Assembly (NCBI GenBank): GCA_965197475.1
Contig: CBDANF010000003.1
Location: 1,024,001 to 1,088,000, forward strand
Direction of reading: 5' to 3'
DNA length: 64,000 nucleotides
DNA from: Candidatus Poribacteria bacterium
Lineage (GTDB): Bacteria > Poribacteria > WGA-4E > WGA-3G
Position 1 is the stretch's first letter. Each line of letters opens with the position of its first letter. This document shows, piece after piece, positions 11,047-63,299 of the stretch. The notes beneath the pieces are model-generated. The model searched no databases. It worked only from the letters and a program-made list of their open reading frames with translations, and was not told the origin of the DNA. A program made the position numbers and the translations under genes.

Positions 11047-11067
11047 TTTTCTCCTTATTAAATTAAA

Positions 11068-11086
11068 GATAACGAGTCTCATTATC
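11068..11086. promoter_or_regulatory. Fur-type box
   Basis: GATAACGAGTCTCATTATC, 21 bp upstream of the DUF4856-like start. Confidence 0.8.
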
Positions 11087-11165
11087 TTTCTAATTTGTTA
11101 GTTGTTAATAGGTTCTTTAGATGCAGAAAGCAATTTTAAAACTGGTTTCTGCCCTGTATAAAATA

Positions 11166-13673
11166 CTAAAAACCTTGCTTGATACCAAAAAGTATCTGTC
11201 GTCTCGGTCCGATTAGGATGCCCGAGCTTAAATTGGCTTCAGGTTGCCCTGCATTTGAATGCAAACGCGACCCGATATAAACTTTATCGAAAATGTTTTT
11301 GGCAGTGAAAAACAGCTGCCACTGTGTCGTTAATTTATAATTTATACTGACATTCACAATAGCATAACTTGGAATGGGACCAGTATCACCACGATTTTTA
11401 GTCTGCTGTATGTTTTCAAAATCGGTGAAGACTTCATCCACAAACCGCATATCTGCACGCATGCGGAGAACATCACCGAAATGTTTCGCTAATCCTACAG
11501 TGAAAGTATGCTGTGGAGCATAAGGTAGTTCGTTGCCGTTTAACTCTACATCAACATTTCCAGCAATAGTCGCAGATTTGACAATACCGTCAACAATTTC
11601 AGTCTGAAGATATGTATAAGTAGCGTTGAGATCAGGTAGTATTGACACGAATTCTGAAATGCTGAATCTTATCGCCGTTTCCAGTCCTGACAAATTAACC
11701 TTCCCTAAATTCTTGAAAGCAGTGCCGCGCCCAGCCGCAACTAAATCTTCAACCGCAATAAAAAATCCAGCAGTCTCTATCGTAACCCCAGGTATCCATG
11801 ATCTGAATCCCAATTCCATGTTCCAGCTTCTTTCAGGTTTAAGGTCAAGCCCGCCAGCATCAACATTTTGACCGAAGTTTGTAACTTTTAACGCGCCGCT
11901 GGAGGGTGCTGTATATCCTCTATGAATGCTGCCGAAAAGATTGAAGTGCCCGACCTGATAGTTTACGCCAATACCCGGCAATAGCACTGAAGACACCTTG
12001 TCTGCCAGCACTGAACCGCGTAGTCTGTCTACCCGGTCCTGTTTAAAAACTTCAAATCGTGTGCCAAATGTAAGAGTAAAGTTTTGCAATTCAAGTTGTT
12101 CTTTTGCATAAAGTGCCAATGCCATAGTTTCGTAGTGATGACTTTGTCCGACAAGTTTGACAGGGTCTTCCGTAGAGCCTGGCGTTCCCGTGTAGTAAAC
12201 GCCATCCCGTGCATCTGGCGCATCGCCAATTTTCTTATCGTCAATAAAACGTTCCCAGTGCACCCTGCCACCGATTTCAGCACGCCCGACATATCCACCA
12301 ATCCCATGTTTTACTGTATAGTTTTGCTCAATTCCACCAACGTAGAAGGTTCGTAGGATACCGAAGTTGCTTTTACCATTACCCATTCTAACAAGATCGC
12401 CTGTTTGGAAATAGGGTACTGGCACCAAATCCCCGGTTTCTAAGGCTGCTGGACGCACAAAGACATCGTCTTCACGCCACCACCGACGATCAAACAGGCT
12501 TGTATATAACGTCGTATTACTTACCAGATTTTCCGTGATTTTGTTGGTATAGATGAGGTCAACTGATGTCCGCAAGACCTTAAAATTATCGTCTTTTTTC
12601 GGGTTAAAGTTGGGATCGGTTTGGAAAGTGTATTCTGTCAAGCCTGTATAGGTTGCGTTTGAATTTTCAAAATTGCCGTTTAGTTTGAAATAGAGAGTCT
12701 TTTCTTCACTCAGTTGGAAAAGCGTTTTAAGAGTTCCGTTAGCCTGATCAAATGTGTTATTTTCCCTAAACCCGTCTCCGTGTTTGTAGAGAAGTTGCAA
12801 GTCTGACAAAATTTTTTCAGAATTTCCGATACCTCTCAATTCTGAAAATGCACCGAAATATCCGTTGTTTCCAACTGTTATCTGATTTCCTAACCCGCGT
12901 GTTCCGTCAGGTTTTCGTGTCGTGTAGTTAATAACTCCTCCCATTGTTTGTGGTCCATAGCGGACTGCAGCACTGCCTTTAATAACCTCAACAGCGTCAA
13001 TTCGATCAGCAGGCGGATTGTAATAGGCATTCGGATAAATGTATACAGCGGGTTGTATTGGCACACCATCTTCAAGCAAAAGCACACGCGCGCTTCGACG
13101 TGGATTCAGGCCTCGAATTCCAATACTCAATCGCGAGTTTCCAAACCCATCATCCGCATAACCGTTGATACCCGGTATGAATTCAAGTAATTCTTGTGTT
13201 CCGACAGGCTTAATTAGGTCAACAATTTCTGGTTCTAACTTGCTCATTGTGCCAGTCAGTATTCTATGTTTACGCAGCGATTGACCAATAATTTCTATCG
13301 GGGCTAATTCAAAGGTCTGGCTTGACAATGCTATTCTTAAATTGTCGGGTGAATCTGAGGCAATTATTTTACTATAGGCATTATAACCAATTGAACTTAC
13401 CTGAATCTGTTGATCCTCTTGGACATTCTGCGTAAATTGAAAGCTACCATCTTTTGCAGTTGTTGTCTTTTCCAAGACTTGTCCGTTTGATTCAACCTTA
13501 ACAATGGCGCCTAAAATAGGGTGACCTGTTTCTTTGTCGATCACTTTGCCGCTAATTTTGGTTGAAGCTTCGCAAAAATTCAGCGTGCCAAAGAGAAAGG
13601 TTAGGACGATTAAGATTGGTACGGTTCTATAGCCAGTTTTTAATCTGCAGGCTCCGAGAAAAAATTGATACAT
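11166..13673 (-). CDS. TonB-dependent receptor, FecA-like, with N-terminal carboxypeptidase-regulatory-like domain
   Basis: Plug IGIRGLNPRRSARVLLLEDGVP, IEVIKGSAAVRYGPQTMGGVIN, LKPERS, C-terminal Phe. Confidence 0.93.
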   Translation of the reverse strand: MYQFFLGACRLKTGYRTVPILIVLTFLFGTLNFCEASTKISGKVIDKETGHPILGAIVKVESNGQVLEKTTTAKDGSFQFTQNVQEDQQIQVSSIGYNAYSKIIASDSPDNLRIALSSQTFELAPIEIIGQSLRKHRILTGTMSKLEPEIVDLIKPVGTQELLEFIPGINGYADDGFGNSRLSIGIRGLNPRRSARVLLLEDGVPIQPAVYIYPNAYYNPPADRIDAVEVIKGSAAVRYGPQTMGGVINYTTRKPDGTRGLGNQITVGNNGYFGAFSELRGIGNSEKILSDLQLLYKHGDGFRENNTFDQANGTLKTLFQLSEEKTLYFKLNGNFENSNATYTGLTEYTFQTDPNFNPKKDDNFKVLRTSVDLIYTNKITENLVSNTTLYTSLFDRRWWREDDVFVRPAALETGDLVPVPYFQTGDLVRMGNGKSNFGILRTFYVGGIEQNYTVKHGIGGYVGRAEIGGRVHWERFIDDKKIGDAPDARDGVYYTGTPGSTEDPVKLVGQSHHYETMALALYAKEQLELQNFTLTFGTRFEVFKQDRVDRLRGSVLADKVSSVLLPGIGVNYQVGHFNLFGSIHRGYTAPSSGALKVTNFGQNVDAGGLDLKPERSWNMELGFRSWIPGVTIETAGFFIAVEDLVAAGRGTAFKNLGKVNLSGLETAIRFSISEFVSILPDLNATYTYLQTEIVDGIVKSATIAGNVDVELNGNELPYAPQHTFTVGLAKHFGDVLRMRADMRFVDEVFTDFENIQQTKNRGDTGPIPSYAIVNVSINYKLTTQWQLFFTAKNIFDKVYIGSRLHSNAGQPEANLSSGILIGPRRQILFGIKQGF

Positions 13674-13692
13674 GAATTCTTTTCCTATACTT

Positions 13693-13947
13693 TTAAAAGC
13701 GTTTTGGATTGGAAATTTTTTGGCGCTTACTGTCAATTTTACCAGTTTTCACATCTTTAGTCGTGTTTTCCGTATTTTCGGTTGTACTAACCGACAAGTT
13801 GGTATTGCCGTAACTACCGCCAGCTTCCTCAGCGACATCAACTTGAGGTGAGAGTATCGGATCGCTCTCACAACCGCACAAAGCAAAACCGATAACTATA
13901 ATCAGTGCTACCAATAATTTTCTGAGTGTGATAAACATTAGGTTCAT
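13693..13947 (-). CDS. Small lipoprotein
   Basis: MNLMF..IGFALCGC lipobox followed by low-complexity tail; lies between DHOR and TBDR genes. Confidence 0.6.
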   Translation of the reverse strand: MNLMFITLRKLLVALIIVIGFALCGCESDPILSPQVDVAEEAGGSYGNTNLSVSTTENTENTTKDVKTGKIDSKRQKISNPKRF

Positions 13948-13975
13948 TATATAAATCCTTATTCTATTCAATCTG

Positions 13976-15379
13976 TTACAAAGACTCCAGAAACGCAATG
14001 AGCGCATCCCGTTCTGTTTTTGACATCTCCAAAGTGGCTTGTCGCGATTTTTCTGCTTCCCCACCATGCCAGAGAATAGCTTCCATCAGGTTTCGTGCCC
14101 GTCCATCATGTAGAAAGTTGGTATGACCGTTAACCGTTTGCACTAAGCCGATACCCCACAATGGCGGTGTCCGCCATTCTTTTCCATCCGCGAGAAAATC
14201 AGGACGATTATCCGCTAAACCGGGTCCCATATCGTGCAACAATAGGTCTGTGTACGGATGAATCGTCTGATTGCTAACTGAGGACACACCGGGTAAAACA
14301 CCAGTTCTTAACGTTGGGATATGACAGATTGTGCATTGCGCTTGTGCGAAAAGTTGTTCGCCGTGCATGACCTGTGGGTTATCCACATTTCGCCGTGCAG
14401 GGACCGCTAAGGTCTGTACGTAGAACGTAACTACCTCTAAAATTTCATCGCTAATCTCAGGCGTTGCGCTGTTTTCGGTGAGTTGTGGTTGTCCTGCCGA
14501 ATTTTCTATGAGAAATAGCGAAGTGGTTAAACCCATATCATCATGATATGCTGATGCGACCTGTTGAAGAAGTGTTGGTTGGTTTGCTTTCCATCCAAAA
14601 CGACCAAGAACATATCGCTTTTGCACGACATCCCATACGAAATTGGGTTTTCCAGAGATGCCATCTCCGTTAACATCAGCCTCATCAGCGTAAGTTAGTA
14701 CGGTTTTTTCAGGAATTGCTTCTAATAAACCGAGTCCAAAAACAACTGGTGCCACACGCGGTGATACCTCAACATCTTCGGGTAGCGGTTGATAGGTATC
14801 CGTAATAAAATAATCTGGATGGCGAAGATGTACGCGTGTGCCATCTGCTGTAATTAACGTTTGTTCAGTATACTCAATTTTGACTGTGCCTTCTGCCGGT
14901 ATTCCAACAATTGCGCGGTTATTCAACTGTGTGCCATAACCCGGCACTGGAATTGGTGGTTTTCCATCTGTCATATTCTCAGTCTTTGGAAGGCTAAGCC
15001 TAAAAAGCAGTGATACAAGTTCTTCATCAAAATCCGGTGGACGTCCTCGCCCGTCACGGCTATGGCAGTTAACGCACGAAACATTATTATAAATAGGTCC
15101 AAGACCAGGATTCACTTCCGCAGGGGCAGTTACAAAGACAGCTTCAAATTCAACATCACCGTCCAAGTGTTTTTCGAGTGATGCTGTAGAAAGATTGGGG
15201 GCTGGGATTGAAAAAGCATGGCTTGATGCATCAAAGATAGTCGTATCCCCACCAGAAAGTGGACCTGTAGAATCTATAGGAAATTTGAATTCAAAGGTAT
15301 CTGTTGGCGATTCTGAGTTACACCCAATTACAAGGGATACCAAGAAAGCGATATATATAACTGTAGGATAATTTTTCAT
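13976..15379 (-). CDS. Di-heme oxidoreductase (DHOR/DUF1111) lipoprotein
   Basis: Two CxxCH motifs (CVNCH, CTICH), GRFGWKA, WRTPPLWG, LHDGRAR; lipobox LVIGC. Confidence 0.92.
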   Translation of the reverse strand: MKNYPTVIYIAFLVSLVIGCNSESPTDTFEFKFPIDSTGPLSGGDTTIFDASSHAFSIPAPNLSTASLEKHLDGDVEFEAVFVTAPAEVNPGLGPIYNNVSCVNCHSRDGRGRPPDFDEELVSLLFRLSLPKTENMTDGKPPIPVPGYGTQLNNRAIVGIPAEGTVKIEYTEQTLITADGTRVHLRHPDYFITDTYQPLPEDVEVSPRVAPVVFGLGLLEAIPEKTVLTYADEADVNGDGISGKPNFVWDVVQKRYVLGRFGWKANQPTLLQQVASAYHDDMGLTTSLFLIENSAGQPQLTENSATPEISDEILEVVTFYVQTLAVPARRNVDNPQVMHGEQLFAQAQCTICHIPTLRTGVLPGVSSVSNQTIHPYTDLLLHDMGPGLADNRPDFLADGKEWRTPPLWGIGLVQTVNGHTNFLHDGRARNLMEAILWHGGEAEKSRQATLEMSKTERDALIAFLESL

Positions 15380-15470
15380 ATTTATTGCTACTTTTGTGGG
15401 AACAACACAGAGGCTGTTCCCAACAAAAACGAAATAGTCTTTGCGTACTGACAAGCACGCTTATTCTGCA

Positions 15471-16556
15471 TTAATTAAACTCACTCGTCTGAACGAGCGG
15501 GAGTATATCTTGCTCAAGCGTCAGCTGAACTTTGCTGACAGCGTCAATAGCTGTCTGAACAGATGAACGGTTGCCTATAATTGAATCACGGAAAGGATCC
15601 GGAATTGCTCCGATGCTGTCAATCGCCTTCTGCACTTCTGTCTGGAACCGGGTATCCAAATCCGCGTCTTTACTGTTCACAAATTCGTTTAACCCTTGTC
15701 CATCACTTACGAATTTTCCCATGTAGACGTTTTGGATTCCTCTGATATTGTCTTGGAAATCTGATATGGAGTTAAAACTGAATTGAGATTCAACAAGGGT
15801 GGTGTCCGATTCGTTGTAAGGGTCAGAAATTTTGCCGTTAGCAACTTCATCAGCAATATCGATCATACCGTTGACCATTTCTTGTACTGCAGCACTTTGT
15901 GACCGATAGACAGCATTTCCCTCTTCACCAGCTGACGCAACAGTATTGCTAAAATTATCACCTTCTGGTGCCCACGCCAAGCGCAGTTGTTTTGTGCTCG
16001 CCTTGAGACTTTCAGTCGCCGAAACAAGGTATTCCAGTTCACGTCCTGTTATATCTGATGCTTTGCGTTGATTGCCATCGCGGAATAGTAGAAACTCAAT
16101 GGTGTGAAAACCTTTCTGTGTAACTTCTAATCCGCTGACATACTCTACCGTTAACTCATCATCTTTATCTAAGACTTCTTGTAGGTTGACGTGATCAACT
16201 GGCCAACTATCTAAAGCAGGGTCAAGTCCTTGCGTATCAACCGGACCAAACAGGAATGCTTCGCTCTGCTCCCACGGTGTCCTCGTGGCTTTCCACGCCT
16301 GTTGTGCTTTTTCCAGATTTGCTTGCGTGGTATCAGTTTTCAACGCCTTGACAGCTGCCAACAATTCACCCGCTTTATTATCTAAATCAGTGTAGGCGGC
16401 TAACACGACAGTATTAGCAAAATCATCAAGTATCTGAGCAGCGTCATAAGCTTCACCTTGATCGTGTTTGTCGTCATCATCGCTCTCACATCCCACAACA
16501 AATGCGAATGCAATTAGCAAACAACAGAATACTGTCCAAACTTTATTGAACTTCAT
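15471..16556 (-). CDS. Imelysin/IrpA-family iron-regulated lipoprotein
   Basis: WEQSEAFLFGP, DSWP, GFHTIE (GxHxxE), EVANGKI, ESQFS. Confidence 0.92.
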   Translation of the reverse strand: MKFNKVWTVFCCLLIAFAFVVGCESDDDDKHDQGEAYDAAQILDDFANTVVLAAYTDLDNKAGELLAAVKALKTDTTQANLEKAQQAWKATRTPWEQSEAFLFGPVDTQGLDPALDSWPVDHVNLQEVLDKDDELTVEYVSGLEVTQKGFHTIEFLLFRDGNQRKASDITGRELEYLVSATESLKASTKQLRLAWAPEGDNFSNTVASAGEEGNAVYRSQSAAVQEMVNGMIDIADEVANGKISDPYNESDTTLVESQFSFNSISDFQDNIRGIQNVYMGKFVSDGQGLNEFVNSKDADLDTRFQTEVQKAIDSIGAIPDPFRDSIIGNRSSVQTAIDAVSKVQLTLEQDILPLVQTSEFN

Positions 16557-16604
16557 AAAAACCTCCAGGTTTTTTCTTAATACACGCGATTTCTACCGCG
16601 CTTG

Positions 16605-17819
16605 TTAATATTGAAAACCGAAGCCAAGCGCAAAGGTATTTTCCCTGTTTTTATCCTTTGTCGCTAAACGCCTCAGTGAATAGTGGCTCTTGAAAACCAA
16701 CTGTGGGTGAACATGGTAGTTAATACCGAAAGTCCACGTAGTTCTTTCCCACCGAGGATTGTCAAAGATAGGACCTTCAACACTCGCCATCGTATCGTAA
16801 AAATCGTAACGGGCGAATACGTCAAGCGTAGGAGATGCATCATTAGCAGTTCTGAAAAATGACAGAATATCGTAGCCCGCTTCAATGTACCAACCGAGGG
16901 CAGAACTGCCTATCGGCGTACGCTTCACATTGAGATTATTGGATAGGGTTCGATTGACTTTAGACAACCGATCAGCATTTTCAAGCATTCCCCAGAGGAA
17001 CAGTCCTCGGACTTTCAGGGCATTCACCTCGTAAAATCCGTGCAGGCTCACAATGCCGACGTGAGCATCGAAATCCACGTCCGGTTTAGGACGGTTTGCT
17101 GCGGTGTCACCGTAGTAACCGGAAATACCGATGCTTGCGTTCTCATGAAATGTATAATCAAGTCGTCCGACAAACGCGAGAGCTTCAGCGTTGACTGTTT
17201 CAAATCGCAGCTGGTGTCCACGAACTATCCAGTGCCGTGAACTGAACCCGGTTGAATCCAAACCGTTGACAATTTGCGCTTGATATTTCAGCGAACTGAG
17301 TGTGCCAAAAAGTTCAATACCGGTTTCGTGCCAGATAGTCGGAATGAGGGGTGTCTCTGCTTCGGGGCGGGTTGTCGTAAAGTAGTGTTGTGGTCGGTGG
17401 CGTTTCGCAATGAGTCCTACAGGCACGATGAAATGCCCAACTCTGAAATTGAGCGAGGGGTGAATTGAAAAGACAGCGGCGAGTTTTTCAACAATGACTT
17501 CACCACCTTTTTCAATCTCCGTCTCGAATTCTCCAAATTCTTCAAATTTGTCAAATTCCATCGTGCTACCGGTGCCACCGTGTTCAAATTCTATTTCTGC
17601 TTCAAGTCGGATGGTATCATTGATGCGGTATTTCGGTGCGATGACGAAACGTTCAACGTCAATAGCTGCACGCCTATTCGGGTCAAGTTCCCAGTCAAAA
17701 CGAGCATAGTTAATCACGCCGTATCCAGAAACCGAAAATGGGTTTGGTTCAGCAACAGTACTGAAACTAAGTAAAATAAACATTCCCAGAAATGTTGGGA
17801 AAAGCATTCGTTTTTTCAT
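16605..17819 (-). CDS. Outer-membrane beta-barrel/porin (OprO/P-like)
   Basis: Signal peptide, EIEFEHGG, PTIWHETG, C-terminal GFGFQY. Confidence 0.8.
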   Translation of the reverse strand: MKKRMLFPTFLGMFILLSFSTVAEPNPFSVSGYGVINYARFDWELDPNRRAAIDVERFVIAPKYRINDTIRLEAEIEFEHGGTGSTMEFDKFEEFGEFETEIEKGGEVIVEKLAAVFSIHPSLNFRVGHFIVPVGLIAKRHRPQHYFTTTRPEAETPLIPTIWHETGIELFGTLSSLKYQAQIVNGLDSTGFSSRHWIVRGHQLRFETVNAEALAFVGRLDYTFHENASIGISGYYGDTAANRPKPDVDFDAHVGIVSLHGFYEVNALKVRGLFLWGMLENADRLSKVNRTLSNNLNVKRTPIGSSALGWYIEAGYDILSFFRTANDASPTLDVFARYDFYDTMASVEGPIFDNPRWERTTWTFGINYHVHPQLVFKSHYSLRRLATKDKNRENTFALGFGFQY

Positions 17820-17833
17820 AAATTTAATTCGGC

Positions 17834-17870
17834 ACCTATTATGATATTGAGACTCAATATCATAATAGGT
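17834..17870. promoter_or_regulatory. Perfect 37-bp palindrome containing a Fur-type box
   Basis: acctattatgatattgag-a-ctcaatatcataataggt; core GATATTGAGACTCAATATC at 17843-17861. Confidence 0.8.
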
Positions 17871-17919
17871 TGTTGGTTAAATCAACTTCAAAATAGGTGA
17901 GATTCCACGCCCAGAAATT

Positions 17920-17938
17920 GATAACGAATCTCATTATC
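17920..17938. promoter_or_regulatory. Fur-type box
   Basis: GATAACGAATCTCATTATC immediately downstream of the -10 element at 17943-17948. Confidence 0.8.
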
Positions 17939-17942
17939 CTAA

Positions 17943-18042
17943 ATCATACTCGGAAGTACAACTAATGTCAAATATTTGTGCTGAATTCGGACATTTTCAC
18001 ACGATTGTTAATAATTATACTCCGTATTTTCAGGAATGTCAA
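17943..18042 (-). promoter_or_regulatory. Two tandem sigma70 promoters for the iron-uptake operon
   Basis: TTGACA-17-TATGAT (17971-17943) and TTGACA-17-TATAAT (18042-18014). Confidence 0.75.
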
Positions 18043-18166
18043 GAAAACTTGCAGAAAATTGTAGATAATTTTGAAAAAATTGGATAAATGGTCTTAAGTT
18101 GTTATATTTGTAGAAGAAAATAAGGCGGGCATAGGCACCCACCCGAGAAAAAAAGGAATATCGCAA

Positions 18167-18280
18167 TTAGCGATTTTGTAAGAGTTCTTTCAGTGCCGCT
18201 TTTTTCCTTTTCAAACGGCGTAGTTGTCGTTGGCGAATTTGTGTTCGCCGTCTTACTTGTCCGCTTTTACTCCGTGGCAT
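18167..18280 (-). CDS. Unannotated 37-aa highly basic protein
   Basis: MPRSKSGQVRRRTQIRQRQLRRLKRKKAALKELLQNR*, preceded by AAGGAGGT; overlaps the stop of the upstream gene. Confidence 0.65.
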   Translation of the reverse strand: MPRSKSGQVRRRTQIRQRQLRRLKRKKAALKELLQNR

Positions 18281-19379
18281 CAGTTTTACCTCCTTCTTCA
18301 TAAGTTTTGGCGAGATACATTAAAGCCGATTGGCAATGTGCCTCCAATTCTTCCATTGCTACTGTTAATTTTTCCTCAGAATATGTATGGAGCTGAACCC
18401 TATTTTCCGTTACTGTGATATAAAGTTCCCGGTTTTGATTGAAATATTCAAGTTGCGTCGCTGTTTCTTTTTCAAGCGTATGCCCCTGCCATTCTTTCAA
18501 TACTTCTTTGATCGCCAAACCTTCAAAATTTTTATAGAGTGCTTTCGCAGGCAGCGTATCGGGAGAAGGTATAGGCTGTGACATTACTGGTGCAGGTTTA
18601 GCTGAAATCAACGAGGAAGAGTCAGCAACTTGCGGTGCTCCAACCTCTGAAAACGGTGGTTCTTCCACAATAGCCTCAGATAACAGGCTTGACAACTTTT
18701 CATCTTGGTATTCAGAATTTTCGATTTCAAAGACATCCGAGAGGATGTTTGTAGCATCAGATTGTTGCTCATTGATAAATGCTGGGTGTTCACTCAGAAG
18801 ACGTAGCGTTTGAATACCGATACCTTCAATTAATGGATGTTCAGCATAGATATCCGGCGGAACGACCTCAAAAAATGAACGTGTAACGAATACTACATCA
18901 ACCCGGTCACGATCTCCTATTCGTCTGAAACGATTTTCACAATTAGTTAATGCGGAAAACAGCGTTCGCATAAAATTTGGTGTAATTAGCCGCGGAAGAA
19001 CTTCTGTGCGGAACTTTTCACAGGTTTCATCTGAATCTTGTGATGGCGGCGGTATATCACTATTTTCGAGAAATTGTGTTTCCTCTCTTACATCTAAGGC
19101 TTCGGGTTCAGCATTTGCTGTAATTTTTATGTCGTTGAGAAATTTCACTACTTCAGTGTACATCAAGTCAAGATTGAAGTGGACCCTTTCAAGTTCTGGT
19201 TCTTCAAGCAAATCACGACTTCTCAAAAGGCACGTATGTAAACGCTCCTCGTCCATCTTCCCGTACGGCAGTCTCCGTTGCTTCTCAACCGCTAATTGTT
19301 TATGTTTAAATTTCCGGTCACGATTTCGTTTTTCCCGCTTGCGGGCAACATTCGCCGACCTACTTTTTTTCTTCGCCAT
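18267..19379 (-). CDS. Hypothetical protein with basic N-terminus
   Basis: 370-aa ORF; K/R-rich N-terminus and acidic body; no family recognised. Confidence 0.8.
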   Translation of the reverse strand: MAKKKSRSANVARKREKRNRDRKFKHKQLAVEKQRRLPYGKMDEERLHTCLLRSRDLLEEPELERVHFNLDLMYTEVVKFLNDIKITANAEPEALDVREETQFLENSDIPPPSQDSDETCEKFRTEVLPRLITPNFMRTLFSALTNCENRFRRIGDRDRVDVVFVTRSFFEVVPPDIYAEHPLIEGIGIQTLRLLSEHPAFINEQQSDATNILSDVFEIENSEYQDEKLSSLLSEAIVEEPPFSEVGAPQVADSSSLISAKPAPVMSQPIPSPDTLPAKALYKNFEGLAIKEVLKEWQGHTLEKETATQLEYFNQNRELYITVTENRVQLHTYSEEKLTVAMEELEAHCQSALMYLAKTYEEGGKTDATE

Positions 19380-19561
19380 GGTAATATTGTTTATATTTGA
19401 TGGAGTTGTTACACATCACATCTTATGTAAAATGCAACAAACCCAAGGTTACATTATATATAAGTATACACAAACATTTTTTTTCTGTCAACTTTTAATT
19501 CTGTGGAGGCATTTTATAGGAGTGTAAAGTTTTGGTAAAAGACTGAATTCTTTTAAATAAT

Positions 19562-53373: not shown

Positions 53374-53610
53374 ATGAATACTAAATTTATCGAATGTCAT
53401 CCCTCAATTATGATGGGTAAACCTGTTATTGCTGGCACTCGCATTCCTATTGAGTTAATTTTGGAAAAGTTTGCAGCAGGTGAGACAATTGAGCAATTGC
53501 TTGAGGAATATCCTCGTTTAACTCGCGAAGGCGTGCATGCAGCGTTTTATTTTGCAGCACAAGCTCTTCGTGCCGATGTTGTCTATCCAATCCTTGAAGA
53601 GACTCAATGA
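53374..53610 (+). CDS. DUF433 antitoxin
   Basis: PSIMMGKPVIAGTRIP..GETIEQLLEEYPRL. Confidence 0.92.
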   Translation: MNTKFIECHPSIMMGKPVIAGTRIPIELILEKFAAGETIEQLLEEYPRLTREGVHAAFYFAAQALRADVVYPILEETQ

Positions 53611-53960
53611 ATTTAGTAGCAGACGAAAGTATTGGTAAGTCAATTGTGGCAGAACTTCGACGCAATGGTCACAACGTATTATACATTGCGAAGTTTGCCC
53701 CAAGTATTGATGATGAAACGGTGCTGTATCAAGCCAACCAAAACCGTGCCCTGCTGCTTACCGAAGATAAAGACTTTGGTGAGCTTGTCTACCGCCAAGG
53801 ACAAGTACACATGGGCATAGTACTTATTCGTCTTGCTGGTTTATCTCCACAAGCAAAAGCAAAAAGCATCTCAACAGTCTTTGCAGATCACGGACACGAA
53901 TTACTGCAAGCTTTTAGCGTTATCTCACCAGGAAGGGTTAGAATTCGTCAACTTCCTTAG
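53607..53960 (+). CDS. DUF5615 PIN-like toxin
   Basis: VADES, DDETVL, LLTEDKDFGEL, RVRIRQL; ATGA overlap with DUF433. Confidence 0.9.
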   Translation: MNLVADESIGKSIVAELRRNGHNVLYIAKFAPSIDDETVLYQANQNRALLLTEDKDFGELVYRQGQVHMGIVLIRLAGLSPQAKAKSISTVFADHGHELLQAFSVISPGRVRIRQLP

Positions 53961-55272: not shown

Positions 55273-55329
55273 TGAGAAGTATTTTCCTTGACAACTCAAA
55301 CCTTGAAAGGCTATAATTATTTAGAGTTG

Positions 55330-55545: not shown

Positions 55546-55661
55546 GTTTTACTCAATAACTCGGAAACGTATTTGTTATAATATTTGCGTTGATTCGAAA
55601 AAATCCCAATTTATGGATGCGCTTTTGTAAGTGTAATTTGAAAAATGTTAGGAGAATTATA

Positions 55662-55931
55662 ATGCAATACACCGATGATACATCTGAAGTTATCGCCGAG
55701 CACGGTGAAGCACTCTATCAGCAAAAAATACGTGACAAAGTTGAATCAGCATACAAAGGAAAGTTCTTAGCGATTGACATTGAAACGGGTGACTATGCAA
55801 TTGCTGATGAAGATTTGGTAGCTACAGACCGTCTTCTTGCGAAACGTCCTAATGCTACTGTCTATGGTCTACGAATCGGATTTCCCACCGCCTATCGAAT
55901 CGGTTTTAAGATTTCGGTTTCAACACAATGA
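55662..55931 (+). CDS. Small hypothetical protein (partner of aspartic protease gene)
   Basis: AGGAG RBS; GEALYQQKIR..GKFLAIDIETGDY; ATGA overlap with the next gene. Confidence 0.75.
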   Translation: MQYTDDTSEVIAEHGEALYQQKIRDKVESAYKGKFLAIDIETGDYAIADEDLVATDRLLAKRPNATVYGLRIGFPTAYRIGFKISVSTQ

Positions 55932-56286
55932 TTTTAGGGAAAATCACAGAGAATCAAGAAGCTATCATTGAATTGGAAGTTGTTGACTCAAATTGGCAGG
56001 AGAAAATTAAAGTTGCCATTGACATAGGCTTTGATGGTTATTTGACACTACCTCTTAATTTAATAAACCGTCTTAAGCTCCGACGGACTGGGCATAGACA
56101 AGCGATGGGAATATGGTAGTCTTTGAGTTGTACCGTGCGAATGTGTTATGGCATGGCACAGAACTCGAAGTGCCTGTTCTGCGTACAGACGGTGGGCCGT
56201 TAGTTGGAATGGCACTGTAAAACGGAAATCGTGTTACATTAGATGTTATAAAAGATGGAGATGTCAAGATTGAAGTTTTGACCTAA
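55928..56286 (+). pseudogene. Clan AA aspartic protease pseudogene
   Basis: AIDIGFDG (DTG motif altered), frameshift near 56103, then DGNMVVFELY..PLVGMAL*NG with an internal stop. Confidence 0.8.
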
Positions 56287-56417
56287 GTTGTAACGAAGAT
56301 CGCATCTGGTTAGCGAATCTACCACGAGAAAAGCCAGAACTCACGAAAACGGTAGACGAAAAATCAGAAAATTAATTTGTGAATTTTCCGTTTCAGGAAA
56401 CTGTAGCTAAAACTATA

Positions 56418-59400
56418 ATGTCAAAACTTTTAGACGGATTAAACCCTTTACAACGAGAAGCTGTTACACATAAATTAGGTCCCCTCTTAATTATTGCAGG
56501 ACCCGGATCAGGTAAAACGCGGACAGTTGTTCATTCTATCGCTTACGCCATAGAAAATGGGGTGATGCCTGAATGGATTTTGGCGTTTAGTTTCACCGTG
56601 AAAGCTTGTAAGGAGTTGAGAAATCGAGTAAAAGAAATTGTGGGAAAAGAAAAAGGAGATATCGTTAATATATCTACATTTCATAGTCTCTGTCGGCAGG
56701 TTTTAAAAGAAGATATTGATAGACTCAATAGAAGTTACGTACGGGATTTTAAATCATTAGACGAAAATGGTCAGATAAAAATTGTTAAACAGTTAACGCG
56801 CACTAATGAACAGCGGGTGCGCGCCGAGATTGAGTATATACAATCTCATGAATTTCCTAATCCTGGCGAGATTCTTAATTTTACAAAAAAATGCAAAGCG
56901 AGAGAAATTAGTCCATCGGATGCTGCTCCTCATGCCCCTGAGCTTCACATGTCGGAGGTTTATGTAGAGATTTACGAACTTTATGAACAGCGTCTTCAGT
57001 ATGAGGGATGGATTGATTACGAGAGCCAGCAGATTTTCACTAATGAACTTTTTAGAAATGTCCCAGAAGTTAAGACTAAATGGCAAAATAGGTTTAAACT
57101 TATTTTCGTTGATGAATACCAAGACACTGACCCTATTCAATATCGAATTGTAAAAACTCTGGCAGAATCCCATCAGAATTTGCGGGTTGTTGGTGATGAT
57201 GACCAAGGGATTTACGGATGGCGGGGAGCTGACATCCAAAATATATTAAACTTTGAGAAAGACTATCAGCACGCTAAGGTAATTTCGCTCGGACAAAACT
57301 ATCGTTCGACAAAGAACATAGTTGCGGCATCCCGTGCTTTAGCGGACTTTAATCCAGATAGGCGAGATAAAGAACTGTTTACGCGGAACTTTGAAGGTAA
57401 GAAAGTAAAACACCTCCACTGTGAAAGTGATGAAGAAGAAGCTTCTACTATTGCGACCTTTGTCCATCGTGCTATTGATCAAGGCGGTCAATCTCCAAGC
57501 GATTTTGCTGTGCTATACCGCACCAAAAAACAAGCAGACGTTTTTAAAAACGCTTTCAAAGAGTTAGGAATTCGGTATCATATAGTTCCGGACTCTTCAG
57601 ATACGAACACAACTGGTGTATCTATGCTGACAATCCATAAATCCAAAGGTTTGGAATTTCCTAACGTGTTTGTTGTAGGTATATGTGAAGAGTTATTACC
57701 CCATTATTACAGTAGGGATGAAAAAGATTGGGATGAGGAACTCCGACTACTTTACGTGGCGATGACTCGAGCGAAAAACTGGTTATGTTTATCTTCTTAT
57801 GAAAAAGACGGGTACAAACAGCGCGGACAATCCCCATTCTTGAAACGCAAGTACATCCCAGCAAACCTTCTTGAATCCATATCAACGCTACAGGATACCC
57901 AGATACCACCAGCACCTGAGGAGATGAACGCTCCTCAGGAACCATTCAACTATATTGAGCCGCTTCCTGAGCAACTACTTGGGGATGGCATGACTGTCAT
58001 CGGCGTTGACCCTGGAAATATTGGTACTCGGAATACAAATGTAGGTTGGTCAGTTACGCAAAAAACCTCTGATGGATATTCTGTTCTTCGCTTTGGCACT
58101 GAGAGACCTACAGGAACTCCAGAAAACAAACTTAGACAGATAGAACGGAAAATAAATGCGTTGATACAGTCCCCATCAAATCGACCGTATGCTATTGCAG
58201 TTGAGAAACTTGAAGTTGCAACAGAGGAAGCGAGAAGGGAATGGTTCTTGTATGTCGCGGCGTGTGTAGCAACTGTAAGAAGTATCGCTGACAAGGAGGG
58301 CATAGAATGTCGATCTATACGCCGCAGCACGTTAAATATGCTGCTACGGACAATAGAAAGGCATCTAAGGAAGATGTCCAGAAGGCTGTCAAGCGAATGT
58401 GTAACCTCCAGCAAATTCCAGAACCACATCATTCTGCGGATGCAATCGCGACAAGTCTTTGCTACCTCAGAAGTTATCTAAACTCTTCCCGCTTTGAAGG
58501 CAATAAACGAAAAATGGAACGGTATGAAACGGGTTGTGATTACATAGACAAAAGACAATTTGATGCAGCAATTGATGAATTCATGGAAACACTATACATA
58601 GATCCTATTTATACAGATGCGTACGTCGGCAAGGGTCGTGTACACCTTGCACAAAACAATATTGAAGCAGCAGAAAACACAGCTGAAAAAGCCTTAAGAC
58701 TTACAGATAATTTTCATCCAGATTCACAGAAGCTATTGAATGCTATAAGAAAATACCACTCTGGCTGTAGTTCCTTGAAAAATAGCGAATGGAATATTGC
58801 GATAGACAACTTCAAGGAATCTATAAACCAAGAACCTATTTTTACTGAAGCACACTGTGGACTCAGTCAGGCATACCTTAATGTAGGTAATCTGGAAGTT
58901 GCCAGAAATGCAGCCGAAGAAGCCTTAAGACTCATAAATGACTATCAACCTGCCCGGGAACTTTTGGTTGAGATAAAAATGAGACATTACAACAATGGCA
59001 AGATTTGCTTCAATCGTGAAGAATATCAACAAGCAATATTTGAATTTCATAATGCAGTGGATATTGACCAAGATTTTAAGGGTGCTCATCGGTTCATTGG
59101 TGAGGTATATTTGAAATTGGTTGAACTTGATAAAGCAGAAAAAAGCGTAAGGGAAGCATTACGGATTGATTCTACCTATCAACAAGCCCATGAACTTTTA
59201 AAAAAAATTAAATATAAACACAAAGAGCAAGGAGATGTACATCAGAAAAGAAATGCCTATTCTGATGCAGTAAAATCTTATGAACATGCAATAAGAATTG
59301 ATGATAAATATAGAAATGCCTATAACAGCCTTGGTATTGTTTATAGAAAAATGAAGGAATATAACAAATCAATAAGTGCTTATCAGAAAGCAATAAACAT

Positions 59401-60220
59401 TGATGAAAGTTGTCATGTAGTCAATACTAATCTCAGCATTGTTTATCTCGATATTAGTGAATACTCTAAGGCAGTAAAATCACTAAAACGTGCAATTACG
59501 ATTAAACCCGATTATCAAGTCGCATACTATTACCTAGCTAGTACTTACTTCAAAATGGAAAATCTAACAGAGGCAAGTGAAACAGTGCTTGAGGCTTTAA
59601 GGCTTGATTCCAATGATCCGTTCACTCTTAAACTTGTAATGAATATCCAGGACACTTATTTGAAACAAGGTCAAGATTCTTTTAATCAGGAGAATCTCGC
59701 TGCAGCAGAAAATGAAGCACGGAAGGCATTACGACTTGATCCAAACTATGAGCATGCAACCTGTCTTATGGTCTCTATAAAAGAAGAATATTATAGGCGT
59801 GGTTCAACATCTCTTAAACAGAACGAATGGATACCAGCAGAAACATGTGCAAAAGAAGCATTGAGAATTGACCCAAACTATCAACTTGCATCTGACCTCT
59901 TAAAACAAACGTATTATGAACAAGGCGTTAATCATATAAAAAACAACAGATATGTAGAAGGTATAAACATACTTCAAAAAGCAAACAATATCAGGACAAA
60001 TTGTGAAAAAACGTACTATAATCTTGGATGGGCTTACTACAAACTGAGCAGATTGAAAGAAGCACAGCTATCGGTCAAACAAGCATTATCAATTGAACCA
60101 AATTATCTTCAGGCCAATGCACTTCTGTCTGAGATAAATCATCCCCGCAATTGGTTGAAATTAGGAGTGGCAAATGTGCGACATTTTACCCGTAGGATAT
60201 TAAAACTGAATCAGGATTGA
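56418..60220 (+). CDS. UvrD/PcrA-like helicase - RuvC - TPR fusion split by a 1-nt frameshift near 58314
   Basis: AGPGSGKT, DEYQD, GDDDQ, QNYRS, TIHKSKGLEF, RLLYVAMTRA; RuvC VIGVDPG, IAVE, then YTPQHVK..ASKEDVQ..HHSADAIA in the second frame; long TPR array. Confidence 0.8.
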
Positions 60221-60322
60221 AGGAAAATGAAATTAGATACTGGACATCCAATTGATATTGACAATTCTGATCAAGTCTCTAATCGTTGAAACTCAGAATT
60301 ACAATTTGCACAGAAAACAAAA

Positions 60323-62949: not shown

Positions 62950-63022
62950 GCCGAGATAGCTCAGTCGGTAGAGCAGTAGACTGAAAATCTATGTGTCGGC
63001 AGTTCGATTCTGCCTCTCGGCA
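62950..63022 (+). tRNA. tRNA-Phe(GAA)
   Basis: Cloverleaf GCCGAGA..TAGCTCAG..CTGAAAA..GTTCGATT..TCTCGGCA; CCA not encoded. Confidence 0.97.
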
Positions 63023-63046
63023 TTCCCATCTGCAACAATTTGCTAA

Positions 63047-63118
63047 GCCGGTGTAGCTCAGTGGAAGAGCAACTGATTCGTAATCAGTAGGTCGGAGGTT
63101 CAAATCCTCTCATCGGCT
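63047..63118 (+). tRNA. tRNA-Thr(CGT)
   Basis: GCCGGTG..ACTGA-TTCGTAA-TCAGT..GGTTCAAATCC..CATCGGCT; CCA not encoded. Confidence 0.97.
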
Positions 63119-63299
63119 TCTCTCTTTTCCAGCACGATTCGTTTCAACTCTTCAAATTAATTCTAATCGCGCCATGTATACAACATACCTTATCCTTTTA
63201 TGAAATCCCAAAATATATGAACATCTTTTGTAGGCATGCTTTGAAACCGCGCTACCGCAGCGTATAAGTAATTACGGTTTTCTATTAGGAGGAAATTCA

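What the first reader, a model, noticed from the sequence alone, without database searches (positions are those of the whole stretch)
56418..60220. UvrD helicase - RuvC nuclease - TPR array fusion: candidate single-gene defence or DNA-processing system
Seen: all SF1A motifs, a Pro-rich linker, then a RuvC domain (D in VDPG, E in IAVE, H/D in HHSAD) cut mid-domain by one missing base, then about 570 aa of TPRs. Adding 1 nt gives one 1267-aa protein. Known: RuvC normally acts alone with RuvAB, and helicase+nuclease+TPR sensor layouts are typical of antiphage proteins. It sits among TA modules. Inference: an undescribed sensor-helicase-resolvase.
Basis: partly seen in the sequence, partly recalled or inferred. 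Interest (0 to 1): 0.75.

Follow-up and report, generated by a model that had tools for sequence, protein, structure and literature searches.

The report
Frameshifted helicase-RuvC-TPR gene of Poribacteria
This is a freshly broken copy of a large, fast-evolving gene found only in sponge-symbiont Poribacteria that joins a DNA-unwinding motor, a RuvC-type DNA-cutting domain and a long protein-binding repeat array, and it is a plausible but untested anti-phage or anti-plasmid protein.

Summary
Two overlapping + strand frames (56418-58313 and 58316-60220) encode a PcrA/UvrD-type helicase, a Pro-rich linker, a RuvC domain cut in its middle, and a TPR array. Against the closest orthologue the window lacks a single C after 58313. 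Reading through gives 1267 aa.

Intact fused orthologues exist: 179 protein clusters, and every source name given says Candidatus Poribacteria. A contig from a second sample matches the window over 2007 bases and carries the missing C. The break is therefore sample-specific, not programmed.

The RuvC fold and its D-E-H-D catalytic set are supported. The helicase lacks the 2B domain.

The gene is accessory: 23 of 176 phylum genomes carry it. It sits at a fixed site that is empty in 19 of 30 genus loci, and it also occurs as deletion stubs and as an IS-broken copy. It is a mosaic, with dN/dS 3-10 times that of its neighbours. One member lies in a Zorya/DrmD/TmtA defence island, but this window's ten neighbours have no defence hits.

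Best reading: a tethered helicase-nuclease with a C-terminal binding module, probably defensive. That function is inferred, not shown.

The parts
56418..57803 (+). SF1A (PcrA/UvrD-type) helicase core with all motifs but without the 2B domain
   Evidence: Pfam UvrD-helicase 265.9 bits and UvrD_C 144.4 bits. NCBIfam PcrA 415.9 bits, well under its 911.2 cut-off. phmmer against PDB aligns PcrA 1pjr residues 7-381 and then 558-660, with about 9 residues in place of PcrA 382-557. The ATG at 56418 matches the N-termini of the orthologues.
57804..57989 (+). Pro-rich linker between helicase and RuvC domain
   Evidence: 9 Pro in the 70 residues from CLSSYE to VIGVDPG. In the model of the G008 orthologue the matching residues 487-510 have pLDDT below 50.
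57990..58313 (+). N-terminal two thirds of the RuvC domain (frame of the helicase), with the catalytic Asp (VIGVDPG) and Glu (AIAVEKLE)
   Evidence: NCBIfam RuvC positions 1-69. Pfam RuvC positions 1-67 at 15 bits. 92% identical to the intact G008 RuvC domain.
58313..58314 (+). Site of the one-base loss (a C present in orthologues and in a near-identical contig of a second sample)
   Evidence: Single gap in the blastn alignment. Read-laying table 4: 'put in behind 58313: C' in X3 (28.7 of 45.5 depth, 2 contigs) and X4 (7.5 of 7.5), and 0 in X1 and X2. X3 record 21 covers 58295-60300 with 0 other letters and 1 gap.
58316..58501 (+). C-terminal third of the RuvC domain (-1 frame), with the catalytic His and Asp (HHSADAIA)
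   Evidence: Pfam RuvC positions 95-147, 46.2 bits. H163 and D166 are invariant in 55 of 55 aligned sequences.
58514..60220 (+). TPR array (about 570 aa) and stop codon
   Evidence: Pfam TPR_2 182.2 bits (8 stretches), TPR_1 152.4 bits, TPR_8 130.1 bits and others.
58293..58309 (+). AAGGAGG followed 7 nt later by ATG, inside the RuvC coding sequence; start of the downstream ORF in the broken allele
   Evidence: Read directly. The stretch encodes K-E-G-I-E in the intact frame, and the G008 orthologue has nearly the same letters. It is therefore a by-product of coding sequence that could allow re-initiation in the broken allele (inference).

Best explanation
The locus is a copy of a Poribacteria-specific accessory gene that was inactivated very recently, or is broken only in one sampled population. 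The intact product is about 1250-1270 aa and has four parts:
1. A PcrA/UvrD-type SF1A motor that lacks the regulatory 2B domain.
2. A flexible Pro-rich tether of about 55-70 aa.
3. A catalytically complete RuvC-type (RNase H fold) nuclease.
4. A long, highly variable TPR array, which in part of the family carries a C-terminal FGE-sulfatase (C-type-lectin-like) domain.

Shown: the architecture, the fold, the conserved catalytic and helicase residues, the one-base lesion, the existence of the intact allele, the phyletic restriction, and the evolutionary behaviour.

Inferred mechanism: the protein works as a self-contained helicase-nuclease laid out like RecB/AddA, with the motor followed by a tethered C-terminal nuclease. 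The motor loads on and tracks along DNA 3'-5'. The tethered RuvC domain cuts the DNA, either branched intermediates or the strands the motor produces. The C-terminal TPR/FGE-sulfatase module binds a protein ligand that recruits or licenses the enzyme.

The most likely biological role is restriction of phages or other mobile DNA in these sponge symbionts.

In this window the one-base loss splits the RuvC domain between its Glu and His/Asp residues, so neither product can carry a complete active site.
For: Family and architecture.
- All 7 intact representatives tested have UvrD, full-length RuvC (Pfam positions 1-147, 55.6-72.9 bits, cut-off 22.2) and TPRs. 4 of the 7 add FGE-sulfatase.
- 179 clusters reach E<=1e-5 among 807 candidates. 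The 120 listed all carry PF02075. By my count at least 25 of these carry PF03781.
- The only source names given are 'crossover junction endodeoxyribonuclease RuvC', 'tetratricopeptide repeat protein' or 'hypothetical protein', all [Candidatus Poribacteria bacterium].
- In the every-protein search, only about 13 representatives at 50% identity span helicase plus RuvC. Scores then fall sharply to ordinary PcrA-type proteins at 338 bits.

Catalysis and fold.
- The D-E-H-D set is invariant in 55 of 55 sequences, and the helicase motifs II-VI are invariant or nearly so.
- The RuvC-domain model has pLDDT 84 and pTM 0.81.
- The ten best PDB matches are all bacterial RuvC, with E 5e-13 to 4e-11 and TM 0.83-0.88 on the target.
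- The 2B domain is absent.
- The tether is disordered, and no confident packing of RuvC on the motor is predicted (pTM 0.42).

The lesion.
- There is one gap against the orthologue.
- Contigs of runs X1 and X2 (one sample) equal the window across 56510-58510.
- A contig of X3 (another sample of the same study) equals the window over 58295-60300 except for the extra C.

Accessory, decaying and fast-evolving.
- The fused RuvC domain was found in 23 of 176 phylum genomes: 8 of 40, 14 of 65 and 1 of 20 in three genera, and 0 of 51 genomes in the other 28 genera. Stand-alone RuvC is widespread, and this genome has its own (170.5 bits).
- Of 30 genus loci around the downstream FAD-oxidoreductase gene, 7 hold the gene, 2 hold only a 173/189-aa N-terminal stub, 19 hold nothing and 2 are undetermined.
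- One genome has a copy cut by two IS copies.
- Identity to the syntenic orthologues is 42-92% depending on the domain, against 80-92% for three flanking genes (rSAM, PaaK-like, FAD-oxidoreductase; TAXI 70-83%).
- The nearest relative differs for 6 of 7 segments among 141 sequences.
- NG86 dN/dS is 0.17-0.31 for the helicase, 0.18-0.30 for RuvC and 0.36-0.44 for the TPRs, against 0.03-0.07 for the flanks.
- Some segments have dS far below the flanks (RuvC against G008 0.215 versus 0.73-0.96). This points to recent exchange of segments between species.

Defence context.
- The member in G164 lies between ZorA2/ZorB2-like genes (150 and 229 bits) and CARF_2OG-, DrmD- and TmtA-like genes (167, 364 and 327 bits).
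- FGE-sulfatase domains are described as C-terminal binding or 'neutralising' modules of bacterial conflict systems (passages of PMC7159879) and as STAND sensors (figure legend of PMC13581612).
Against: - No functional data exist.
- In this window none of the 10 neighbouring proteins hits a PADLOC model.
- In 16 of 19 strong loci the gene sits at one conserved site next to an FAD-oxidoreductase and a TAXI binding-protein gene. That fits vertical descent with loss as well as a hotspot.
- The G078 copy lies among metabolic genes.
- No family member was found in IMG/VR: the single weak hit is a stand-alone 154-aa phage RuvC. None was found on phage records (0 of 172 matching records cover 80% or more of the query) or on plasmids (3 of 2847 records cover 80% or more; the one I inspected is an ordinary PcrA).
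- The strong PADLOC GajB and DRT-helicase scores reflect general UvrD similarity only. PcrA scores higher.
- TPR-rich proteins are common in sponge symbionts (recalled), so the TPR array alone says little.
- dN/dS below 1 everywhere is also what a fast-evolving but non-defensive accessory gene would show.
- The read evidence is from contigs, not raw reads, so a systematic error in one sample's runs is not excluded.
Confidence: 0.55

Rival explanations
1. The family is a lineage-specific DNA repair or recombination enzyme, a one-chain helicase-resolvase for stalled forks or Holliday junctions, with the TPRs docking it to other repair or replication proteins. It would not be an immune protein.
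For: The RuvC domain is closest in sequence and fold to genuine Holliday-junction resolvases. The helicase is closest to PcrA/UvrD repair helicases. The location is a stable chromosomal one in two genera. No mobile-element genes flank it in the window.
Against: It is present in only 23 of 176 genomes of the phylum, while canonical RuvC and PcrA-type genes persist. Loss, stubs, IS hits and a frameshift recur. The gene is a mosaic, and its dN/dS is 3-10 times that of the flanks. The C-terminal modules vary and include FGE-sulfatase. One copy sits in a defence island.
Confidence: 0.2
2. The frame break is a sequencing or assembly artefact, and the organism actually carries the intact 1267-aa gene.
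For: A contig of another sample that is otherwise identical over 2007 bases has the C. There are no other lesions in 3.8 kb. The evidence from the source-like sample is contigs only.
Against: Independently built contigs of two runs (X1, X2) of one sample carry the deletion at depth 11.5 and 13.5, with no contig showing the C. The site is not a homopolymer. The adjacent small gene is also broken, by a frame change and by a stop codon that cannot be an indel error. That fits real decay of this locus.
Confidence: 0.2
3. The break is functional: either a programmed -1 ribosomal frameshift, or a deliberate split into a helicase protein and a TPR protein that starts at the ATG at 58307 behind AAGGAGG.
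For: A strong Shine-Dalgarno-like AAGGAGG lies 7 nt before the ATG at 58307.
Against: All syntenic orthologues (G008, G016, G005, G011, G104, G106) and the near-identical X3 contig are in frame. No slippery heptamer lies in the 58292-58316 overlap. The split falls inside the RuvC fold, between the Glu and the His/Asp. The same AGGAGG-ATG letters occur in the intact G008 gene, where they simply encode E-G-I-E-C.
Confidence: 0.03
4. The protein is a symbiosis factor: a 'eukaryote-like' TPR protein that acts on the sponge host.
For: The family is restricted to sponge-associated Poribacteria. It has a long TPR array.
Against: It is fused to conserved, catalytically complete cytoplasmic DNA enzymes. 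No secretion-related domain was seen in Pfam scans of 8 family members. Most genomes of the same symbiont genera lack it.
Confidence: 0.04

Closest known systems
RecB / AddA / AdnB-type helicase-nucleases
   Same: An SF1A UvrD-like motor is followed by a flexible linker and a C-terminal nuclease domain in one chain. AddA and RecB models match the motor (130 and 124.5 bits; PDB RecB and AddA hits).
   Different: The nuclease here is a RuvC/RNase H fold, not PD-(D/E)xK. The 2B domain is missing. No RecC/AddB-like partner gene is adjacent. A 570-aa TPR array follows. Scores are far below the family cut-offs.
Bacterial RuvC Holliday-junction resolvase
   Same: Pfam RuvC matches over its full length and above the cut-off in intact members. 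The D-E-H-D set is invariant. The predicted fold superposes on P. aeruginosa, D. radiodurans, T. thermophilus and E. coli RuvC with TM 0.83-0.88.
   Different: It is only about 27-34% identical to the stand-alone RuvC of the same phylum. It is embedded in a 1250-aa protein rather than being a protein of about 170 aa working with RuvAB. The genome keeps its own canonical RuvC. Dimer formation and junction specificity are untested.
PcrA / UvrD / Rep helicases
   Same: These are the best sequence relatives of the motor: 1pjr PcrA at E 1.4e-95 and TIGR01073 at 415.9 bits. All SF1 motifs are present.
   Different: The motor scores below the equivalog cut-offs (415.9 against 911.2 bits). The 2B domain is replaced by about 9 residues. 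The C-terminal Tudor-type region is replaced by linker, RuvC and TPR. The genome has a separate 735-aa PcrA-type gene, 40% identical.
Gabija (GajA nuclease with GajB UvrD-like helicase) and other helicase-nuclease defence systems
   Same: A UvrD-like helicase is combined with a nuclease. GajB models match at up to 294 bits, and GajB chains match in PDB.
   Different: There is no GajA (OLD/Toprim) gene nearby. The nuclease is fused and of a different fold. The GajB match is weaker than the PcrA match, so it reflects the shared superfamily only.
Conflict-system proteins with C-terminal TPR or FGE-sulfatase binding modules (STAND/Avs sensors, vWA-MoxR ternary systems)
   Same: Variable C-terminal TPR arrays and, in part of the family, an FGE-sulfatase domain at the extreme C-terminus. 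This matches the 'always C-terminal' syntax described in PMC7159879 (passages) and the STAND sensors in PMC13581612 (legend).
   Different: There is no STAND, vWA or MoxR NTPase. The NTPase here is an SF1 helicase and the effector a RuvC nuclease. Neither paper mentions RuvC or UvrD (0 occurrences of each).

Membership tests
RuvC (PF02075) crossover junction endodeoxyribonuclease | Profile match over the full domain, above the curated cut-off | tested here: met
   Met in the intact family members: 7 of 7 match at 55.6-72.9 bits over positions 1-147 (cut-off 22.2). In the window the two halves match separately: 15.0 bits (below the cut-off) and 46.2 bits.
RuvC (PF02075) crossover junction endodeoxyribonuclease | Four catalytic residues (Asp, Glu, Asp/His, Asp) on an RNase H-like fold | tested here: met
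   D22, E87, H163 and D166 of the domain alignment are invariant in 55 of 55 sequences, and all four are present in the window. The model's strand and helix order and its top ten PDB hits are RuvC. Equating these positions with E. coli D7/E66/D138/D141 is recalled, not computed.
RuvC (PF02075) crossover junction endodeoxyribonuclease | Homodimer that makes paired nicks in a Holliday junction | not testable with these tools
   A two-copy complex job gave no verdict and counts neither way. Cleavage specificity needs an assay.
RuvC (PF02075) crossover junction endodeoxyribonuclease | Stand-alone protein of about 160-190 aa that acts with RuvAB | tested here: not met
   The domain is embedded in proteins of 1000-1660 aa. 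A separate canonical RuvC exists in the same genome (170.5 bits).
PcrA/UvrD/Rep (SF1A) helicases | Conserved SF1 helicase motifs (Walker A, DEYQD, motifs III-VI) | tested here: met
   The motifs are located in the window and are invariant or nearly so in 54 sequences. Pfam UvrD-helicase scores 265.9 bits.
PcrA/UvrD/Rep (SF1A) helicases | Four-subdomain layout including the 2B domain; equivalog-level score | tested here: not met
   PcrA residues 382-557 have no counterpart. TIGR01073 scores 415.9 bits against a cut-off of 911.2, and the UvrD and Rep models are also far below their cut-offs.
RecB/AddA helicase-nucleases | C-terminal PD-(D/E)xK nuclease and a partner subunit (RecC/AddB) | tested here: not met
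   The nuclease is of RuvC fold. AddA and RecB models match the motor only, at 130 and 124.5 bits against cut-offs of about 700. No partner-like gene is among the neighbours.
Gabija | GajB helicase encoded next to a GajA OLD-family nuclease | tested here: not met
   GajB models match, but none of the 10 neighbours hits any PADLOC model, and no OLD/Toprim domain appears in the Pfam scans.
Anti-phage defence gene (generic, by genomic context) | Recurrent location in defence islands or in variable hotspots | tested here: inconclusive
   1 of 19 strong loci lies in a clear defence island. 16 of 19 lie at one site upstream of the FAD-oxidoreductase gene. That site shows presence/absence and holds other variable small genes, but no known defence genes were seen there.

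The most novel reading that the evidence does not exclude
The intact gene is a new single-protein immune system of sponge symbionts: a 2B-less SF1A motor with a tethered RuvC resolvase-type nuclease. A hypervariable TPR or FGE-sulfatase receptor that recognises phage proteins would switch it on or aim it. The nuclease would then destroy branched or unwound invader DNA. Domain-sized allele segments are traded between Poribacteria species as a shared immune repertoire.
Probability: 0.4. Interest if true: 0.75.

Novelty: new variant of a known kind. Interest (0 to 1): 0.55.

Why it matters
RuvC-type resolvase domains are known as small stand-alone enzymes, or as the cutting module of RNA-guided nucleases. 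A canonical RuvC tethered to a UvrD-type motor and a large receptor-like repeat array turned up in none of the four literature searches.

If the family is defensive, it would add a new effector-motor combination to the helicase-nuclease theme of RecBCD, Gabija, Hachiman and Cas3. It would also give a handle on phage-host conflict in uncultured sponge symbionts.

The locus is a compact natural experiment in gene turnover. One chromosomal site shows intact, frameshifted, IS-broken, stub and empty states, with inter-species exchange of domain-sized segments.

For this particular window the practical message is smaller: the gene here is broken by one base.

Tried and rejected
- Homodimer prediction for the RuvC domain (two copies of residues 12-182 of the G008 domain, with alignment): score 0.02 against a mark of 0.42, no verdict. 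Not used as evidence either way.
- RNA evidence: no RNA holder was listed among the sequencing runs, so expression is unknown.
- Programmed frameshift or functional split: rejected, because orthologues and a near-identical contig are in frame.
- Gabija or DRT membership suggested by high PADLOC scores: rejected as generic UvrD similarity with no partner genes nearby.
- Phage or plasmid origin:
  - The IMG/VR scan gave one weak hit, a stand-alone 154-aa phage RuvC.
  - Among phage records, 0 of 172 matches cover 80% or more of the query.
  - Among plasmid records, 3 of 2847 do. I inspected only the best listed one, which is an ordinary PcrA with a Tudor domain.
- ESM Atlas look-up of residues 1-700 of an intact orthologue: the nearest clusters are short UvrD-like helicases (450-590 aa), none with RuvC. 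This is a lead only.
- Two-domain model (helicase plus RuvC, 693 aa): pLDDT 70.2 and pTM 0.42, too poor to say how the domains sit together. It was not sent to fold search.
- Earlier findings of this scan: three look-ups, nothing to show.
- Two family scans failed on an out-of-range coordinate and were re-sent corrected.
- Not tried: a link between the FGE-sulfatase-bearing members and diversity-generating retroelements; raw-read pile-ups (only contigs were served); formal recombination tests or site-wise selection tests.
- Supplementary files of the two papers read were not available.
Full report
WHAT IS IN THE SEQUENCE

The + strand holds two long overlapping ORFs, 56379-58481 (700 aa) and 58307-60220 (637 aa). 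The second is in the -1 frame relative to the first.

The first ORF is a UvrD/PcrA-type helicase:
- Pfam UvrD-helicase scores 265.9 bits and UvrD_C 144.4 bits.
- All SF1 motifs are present, at coordinates worked out.
- The likely true start is the ATG at 56418, because the orthologues begin MSKLL(D/N)GLNP.

After the helicase comes a 70-residue stretch with 9 prolines, and then the beginning of a RuvC domain.
- That RuvC half is weak on its own: Pfam 15.0 bits, E 0.024, positions 1-67, and NCBIfam RuvC positions 1-69, E 9.8e-4.
- The second ORF opens with the rest of RuvC (positions 95-147, 46.2 bits).
- It continues as a TPR array (TPR_2 182 bits in 8 stretches).

THE BREAK

blastn of 58200-58420 against the closest orthologue (G008) gives 93% identity and a single gap. 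The window reads CGA-TCT where the orthologue reads CGACTCT, so one C is missing after 58313. The site is not a homopolymer. Reading through with X at the break gives 632+1+634 = 1267 aa.

Public runs were found with the stretch and their contigs laid on 56300-60300.
- Two runs of one sample (X1, X2) have contigs identical to the window across 56510-58510, deletion included (depth 11.5 and 13.5). No contig there shows the C.
- A run from a second sample of the same study (X3) has a contig that covers 58295-60300 with 0 other letters and one gap. Table 4 names that gap: 'C put in behind 58313' (28.7 of 45.5 depth, 2 contigs).
- The remaining 16.8 of depth in X3 belongs to one contig that reaches the site. 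The tables do not say whether it ends there.
- A 93%-similar relative in X4 also has the C.

The intact allele therefore exists in an essentially identical strain, and the break is sample-specific.

This rules out a conserved programmed frameshift or a deliberate split. The AAGGAGG-N7-ATG at 58293-58309 is ordinary coding sequence that is also present in the intact G008 gene.

Because only contigs were served, a systematic error in one sample's runs cannot be fully excluded. I put the artefact reading at about 0.2.

The neighbouring small gene supports real decay of this locus. It is retropepsin-like by my reading and has no Pfam hit. In the window it too is broken, by a frame change near 56105-56110 and by an in-frame stop, when compared with an intact 172-aa homologue.

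THE FAMILY

Searching same-genus genomes with the linker and N-terminal RuvC part found open frames of 1249-1294 aa in 4 of 24 genomes. A fifth genome holds a copy broken into pieces.

The every-protein HMMER search shows about 13 representatives at 50% identity that span helicase plus RuvC (P0001-P0012 and P0123; complete ones are 1000-1412 aa). Scores then drop sharply to ordinary PcrA-type helicases at 338 bits.

All 7 intact representatives scanned have the same layout:
- UvrD, a full-length RuvC above the Pfam cut-off (55.6-72.9 bits, positions 1-147), and TPRs.
- 4 of the 7 end in an FGE-sulfatase domain.

The word-indexed search found 179 clusters at 90% identity (E<=1e-5, of 807 candidates).
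- The 120 listed all carry PF02075, and nearly all also carry PF00580 and TPR families.
- By my count at least 25 of the 120 carry PF03781. Some Pfam lists are cut short, so this is a lower bound.
- The only names any source gives are 'crossover junction endodeoxyribonuclease RuvC', 'tetratricopeptide repeat protein' and 'hypothetical protein', all from Candidatus Poribacteria.

A pattern scan of one genome for each of 185,579 species found 24 loci.
- 19 are strong (51-100% identity). Of these, 17 are titled Candidatus Poribacteria and 2 'uncultured bacterium'.
- 5 are weak (26-35%), in Pirellulales, Thermotogae and Achromobacter. I take these to be ordinary RuvC by their identity but did not inspect them.
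- The patterns were family-specific, so distant fused relatives could be missed.

Four literature searches found no description of such a fusion.

ANATOMY AND CONSERVATION

- The helicase aligns to PcrA (1pjr) residues 7-381 and 558-660, with about 9 residues where PcrA has 382-557. The regulatory 2B domain is therefore absent.
- The genome has its own 735-aa PcrA-type gene, 40% identical, and its own canonical RuvC at 170.5 bits. The fusion is an extra set of domains, not a replacement.
- In a 55-sequence alignment the RuvC residues D22, E87, H163 and D166 are invariant, and the window has all four.
- Helicase motifs II-VI are invariant or nearly so in 54 sequences.
- An AlphaFold2 model of the intact G008 RuvC domain (92% identical to the window's) has pLDDT 84 and pTM 0.81. 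Its ten best PDB matches are all bacterial RuvC (E 5e-13 to 4e-11, TM on target 0.83-0.88, rmsd 2.1-2.5).
- A 693-aa model of helicase plus RuvC is mediocre (pLDDT 70.2, pTM 0.42), with the linker below pLDDT 50. I take from it only that no fixed packing is predicted.
- The one-base loss falls between the Glu and the His/Asp of the RuvC site, so neither product of the broken allele has a complete nuclease.

EVOLUTIONARY BEHAVIOUR

Distribution. Across 176 genomes of the phylum, the fused RuvC domain occurs in 23. The criteria were 164 bits or more, 53-100% identity, and an open frame of 800 aa or more; this window's own broken copy (open frames 701 and 642 aa) is counted by score and identity.
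- By genus: 8 of 40 in this genus, 14 of 65 in a sister genus, 1 of 20 in a genus of another family, and 0 of 51 in the other 28 genera.
- Hits at about 27-34% identity with open frames of mostly 164-226 aa, which are the stand-alone RuvC, are widespread.

Location. In 16 of 19 strong loci the gene lies directly upstream of an FAD-dependent oxidoreductase gene (430 aa, Trp-halogenase-like Pfam match) and a TAXI-type binding-protein gene. A radical-SAM gene and a PaaK-like ligase gene usually lie upstream.

States of that site. Among 30 loci of this genus centred on the oxidoreductase gene:
- 7 hold the full gene, including this broken one.
- 2 hold only a 173- or 189-aa N-terminal helicase stub.
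- 19 hold no part of it. The ligase gene lies as close as 41-340 nt in several of them.
- 2 could not be judged.

One further genome has a copy cut into 284-, 799- and 221-aa pieces by two copies of a 426-aa transposase gene.

The gene evolves differently from its neighbours.
- Against the syntenic orthologues, three flanking proteins (radical SAM, ligase, oxidoreductase) are 80-92% identical and the TAXI protein 70-83%, while the fusion's domains are 42-92% identical in a mosaic pattern.
- Against G008 the figures are helicase 62%, linker 64%, RuvC 92%, TPR 42%. Against G005 they are 74, 51, 67 and 71%.
- Among 141 family sequences the nearest relative changes from segment to segment:

| Segment | Nearest relative | Identity |
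|---|---|---|
| Helicase N part | P0214 | 84% |
| Helicase 2A | P0158 | 87% |
| Linker | P0158 | 91% |
| RuvC | G008 / P0232 | 92% |
| TPR thirds | P0207, P0153, G005 | 79-86% |

- Nei-Gojobori estimates give dN/dS of 0.03-0.07 for the flanks, against 0.17-0.31 (helicase), 0.18-0.30 (RuvC) and 0.36-0.44 (TPR) for the fusion.
- Several segments have synonymous divergence far below the flanks: RuvC against G008 0.215 versus 0.73-0.96; linker against G016 0.107 versus 1.1-1.5; TPR against G005 0.46 versus 1.3-1.6.
- This indicates recent transfer of gene segments between species.
- These are rough figures. Some dS values are saturated, and three linker comparisons could not be computed.

CONTEXT AND THE DEFENCE QUESTION

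In this window the ten neighbouring proteins have no PADLOC hit.

The only toxin-antitoxin-like element is a DUF433/DUF5615 pair at 53374-53960. It is absent between the same two genes in three orthologous loci (gaps of 4-255 nt).

Of the three strong loci that are not beside the oxidoreductase gene:
- One contig is too short to judge.
- One (G078) lies among metabolic genes.
- One (G164) lies in a clear defence island:

| Neighbour in G164 | PADLOC score |
|---|---|
| ZorA2-like | 150 bits |
| ZorB2-like | 229 bits |
| Trypsin-like peptidase | - |
| The fusion gene | - |
| CARF_2OG-like oxygenase | 167 bits |
| DrmD-like SNF2 helicase | 364 bits |
| TmtA-like protein | 327 bits |

No member was found in IMG/VR, on phage records or, as far as I checked, on plasmids.

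The literature read in passages describes FGE-sulfatase domains in two roles. One is as strictly C-terminal binding or 'neutralising' modules of bacterial conflict systems (PMC7159879). The other is as sensors of STAND immune proteins (PMC13581612, figure legend). Neither paper mentions RuvC or UvrD.

MECHANISM PROPOSED

What is shown:
- an SF1A motor with intact motifs;
- a tethered, catalytically complete RuvC-fold nuclease;
- a variable C-terminal repeat or lectin-like module.

What is inferred:
- The layout mirrors RecB/AddA (motor, linker, C-terminal nuclease), with a different nuclease fold and without partner subunits.
- The enzyme probably couples 3'-5' translocation or unwinding to DNA cutting by the tethered RuvC domain.
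- The TPR/FGE-sulfatase part recruits or licenses the enzyme by binding a protein.
- Whether the RuvC domain dimerises and cuts four-way junctions, or acts on strands produced by the motor, is open.

The combination of patchy presence, repeated decay, allele mosaicism, raised dN/dS that peaks in the TPR part, receptor-like C-termini and one defence-island context makes an anti-phage or anti-plasmid role the most likely. I put the full statement at about 0.55.

The main rival is a dispensable repair or recombination enzyme (about 0.2).

VERDICT

- The finding is real.
- The functional reading is plausible but untested.
- The copy in this window is broken by one base.

The family is a new variant of the helicase-nuclease theme, restricted to Poribacteria as far as these searches see. 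It is annotated in databases only as 'RuvC', 'TPR protein' or 'hypothetical'.

Noticed in passing
window 55928-56290 (+): The small gene just upstream of the fusion is also broken in the window. It is homologous to an intact 172-aa ORF in G106, retropepsin-like by my reading, with no Pfam hit. tblastn shows a frame change near 56105-56110 and an in-frame stop further on. Its partner ORF at 55590-55931 has no Pfam or PADLOC hit.
   Followed up: partly
window 53374-53960 (+): A DUF433 / DUF5615 (PIN-like) toxin-antitoxin-type pair sits between the radical-SAM gene and the PaaK-like ligase gene. In three orthologous loci (G008, G016, G005) those two genes are only 4-255 nt apart, so the pair looks like an insertion; G011, with a 517-nt gap, was not checked.
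   Followed up: partly
L013 (G001) 5170-13398: The G001 copy of the fusion gene is cut into 284-, 799- and 221-aa pieces by two identical-looking 426-aa transposase genes, with a third, related 425-aa ORF just upstream. It is no longer next to the oxidoreductase gene, which lies on another contig.
   Followed up: partly
L081 187-708 (G020); L082 13-582 (G003): Only a 173- or 189-aa N-terminal helicase stub of the fusion gene remains beside the oxidoreductase gene. These are deletion relics of the same gene.
   Followed up: yes
L050 (G164) 90-19500: A defence island surrounds one family member: ZorA2/ZorB2-like genes, a trypsin-like peptidase, a CARF_2OG-like 2OG-Fe(II) oxygenase, a DrmD-like SNF2 helicase and a TmtA-like protein with a Sacsin domain.
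   Followed up: partly
L012 7317-7808 and homologues (L081 951-1442, L082 825-1316, L051, L054, L055): A 162-167-aa ORF recurs in the slot upstream of the fusion gene. It starts ...VYIET(S/T)IPSFY(Y/F)TLR... and has no Pfam or PADLOC hit. It also occurs in three genomes that lack the fusion. Its function is unknown.
   Followed up: partly
window 55288-55317 (+): A perfect sigma-70 consensus (TTGACA, 18 nt, TATAAT; 12 of 12) lies just after the ligase gene's stop and ahead of the small ORFs and the fusion gene. No terminator-like site lies between the fusion gene's stop (60220) and the oxidoreductase gene's start (60323).
   Followed up: no
family members P0002, P0003, P0006, P0008 and others: A C-terminal FGE-sulfatase (PF03781) domain follows the TPR array in 4 of 7 scanned representatives, and in at least 25 of the 120 listed clusters. 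The window's copy has none. A link to diversity-generating retroelements was not tested.
   Followed up: no
window 62950-63120 (+): tRNA-Phe (GAA) and tRNA-Thr (CGT) genes lie 2.7 kb downstream of the fusion gene.
   Followed up: no
window 56434-56567: Summed contig depth in the metagenome runs jumps to 249-1139 over the Walker A region, against about 12-50 elsewhere. Many other helicase genes in these samples share this conserved stretch.
   Followed up: no
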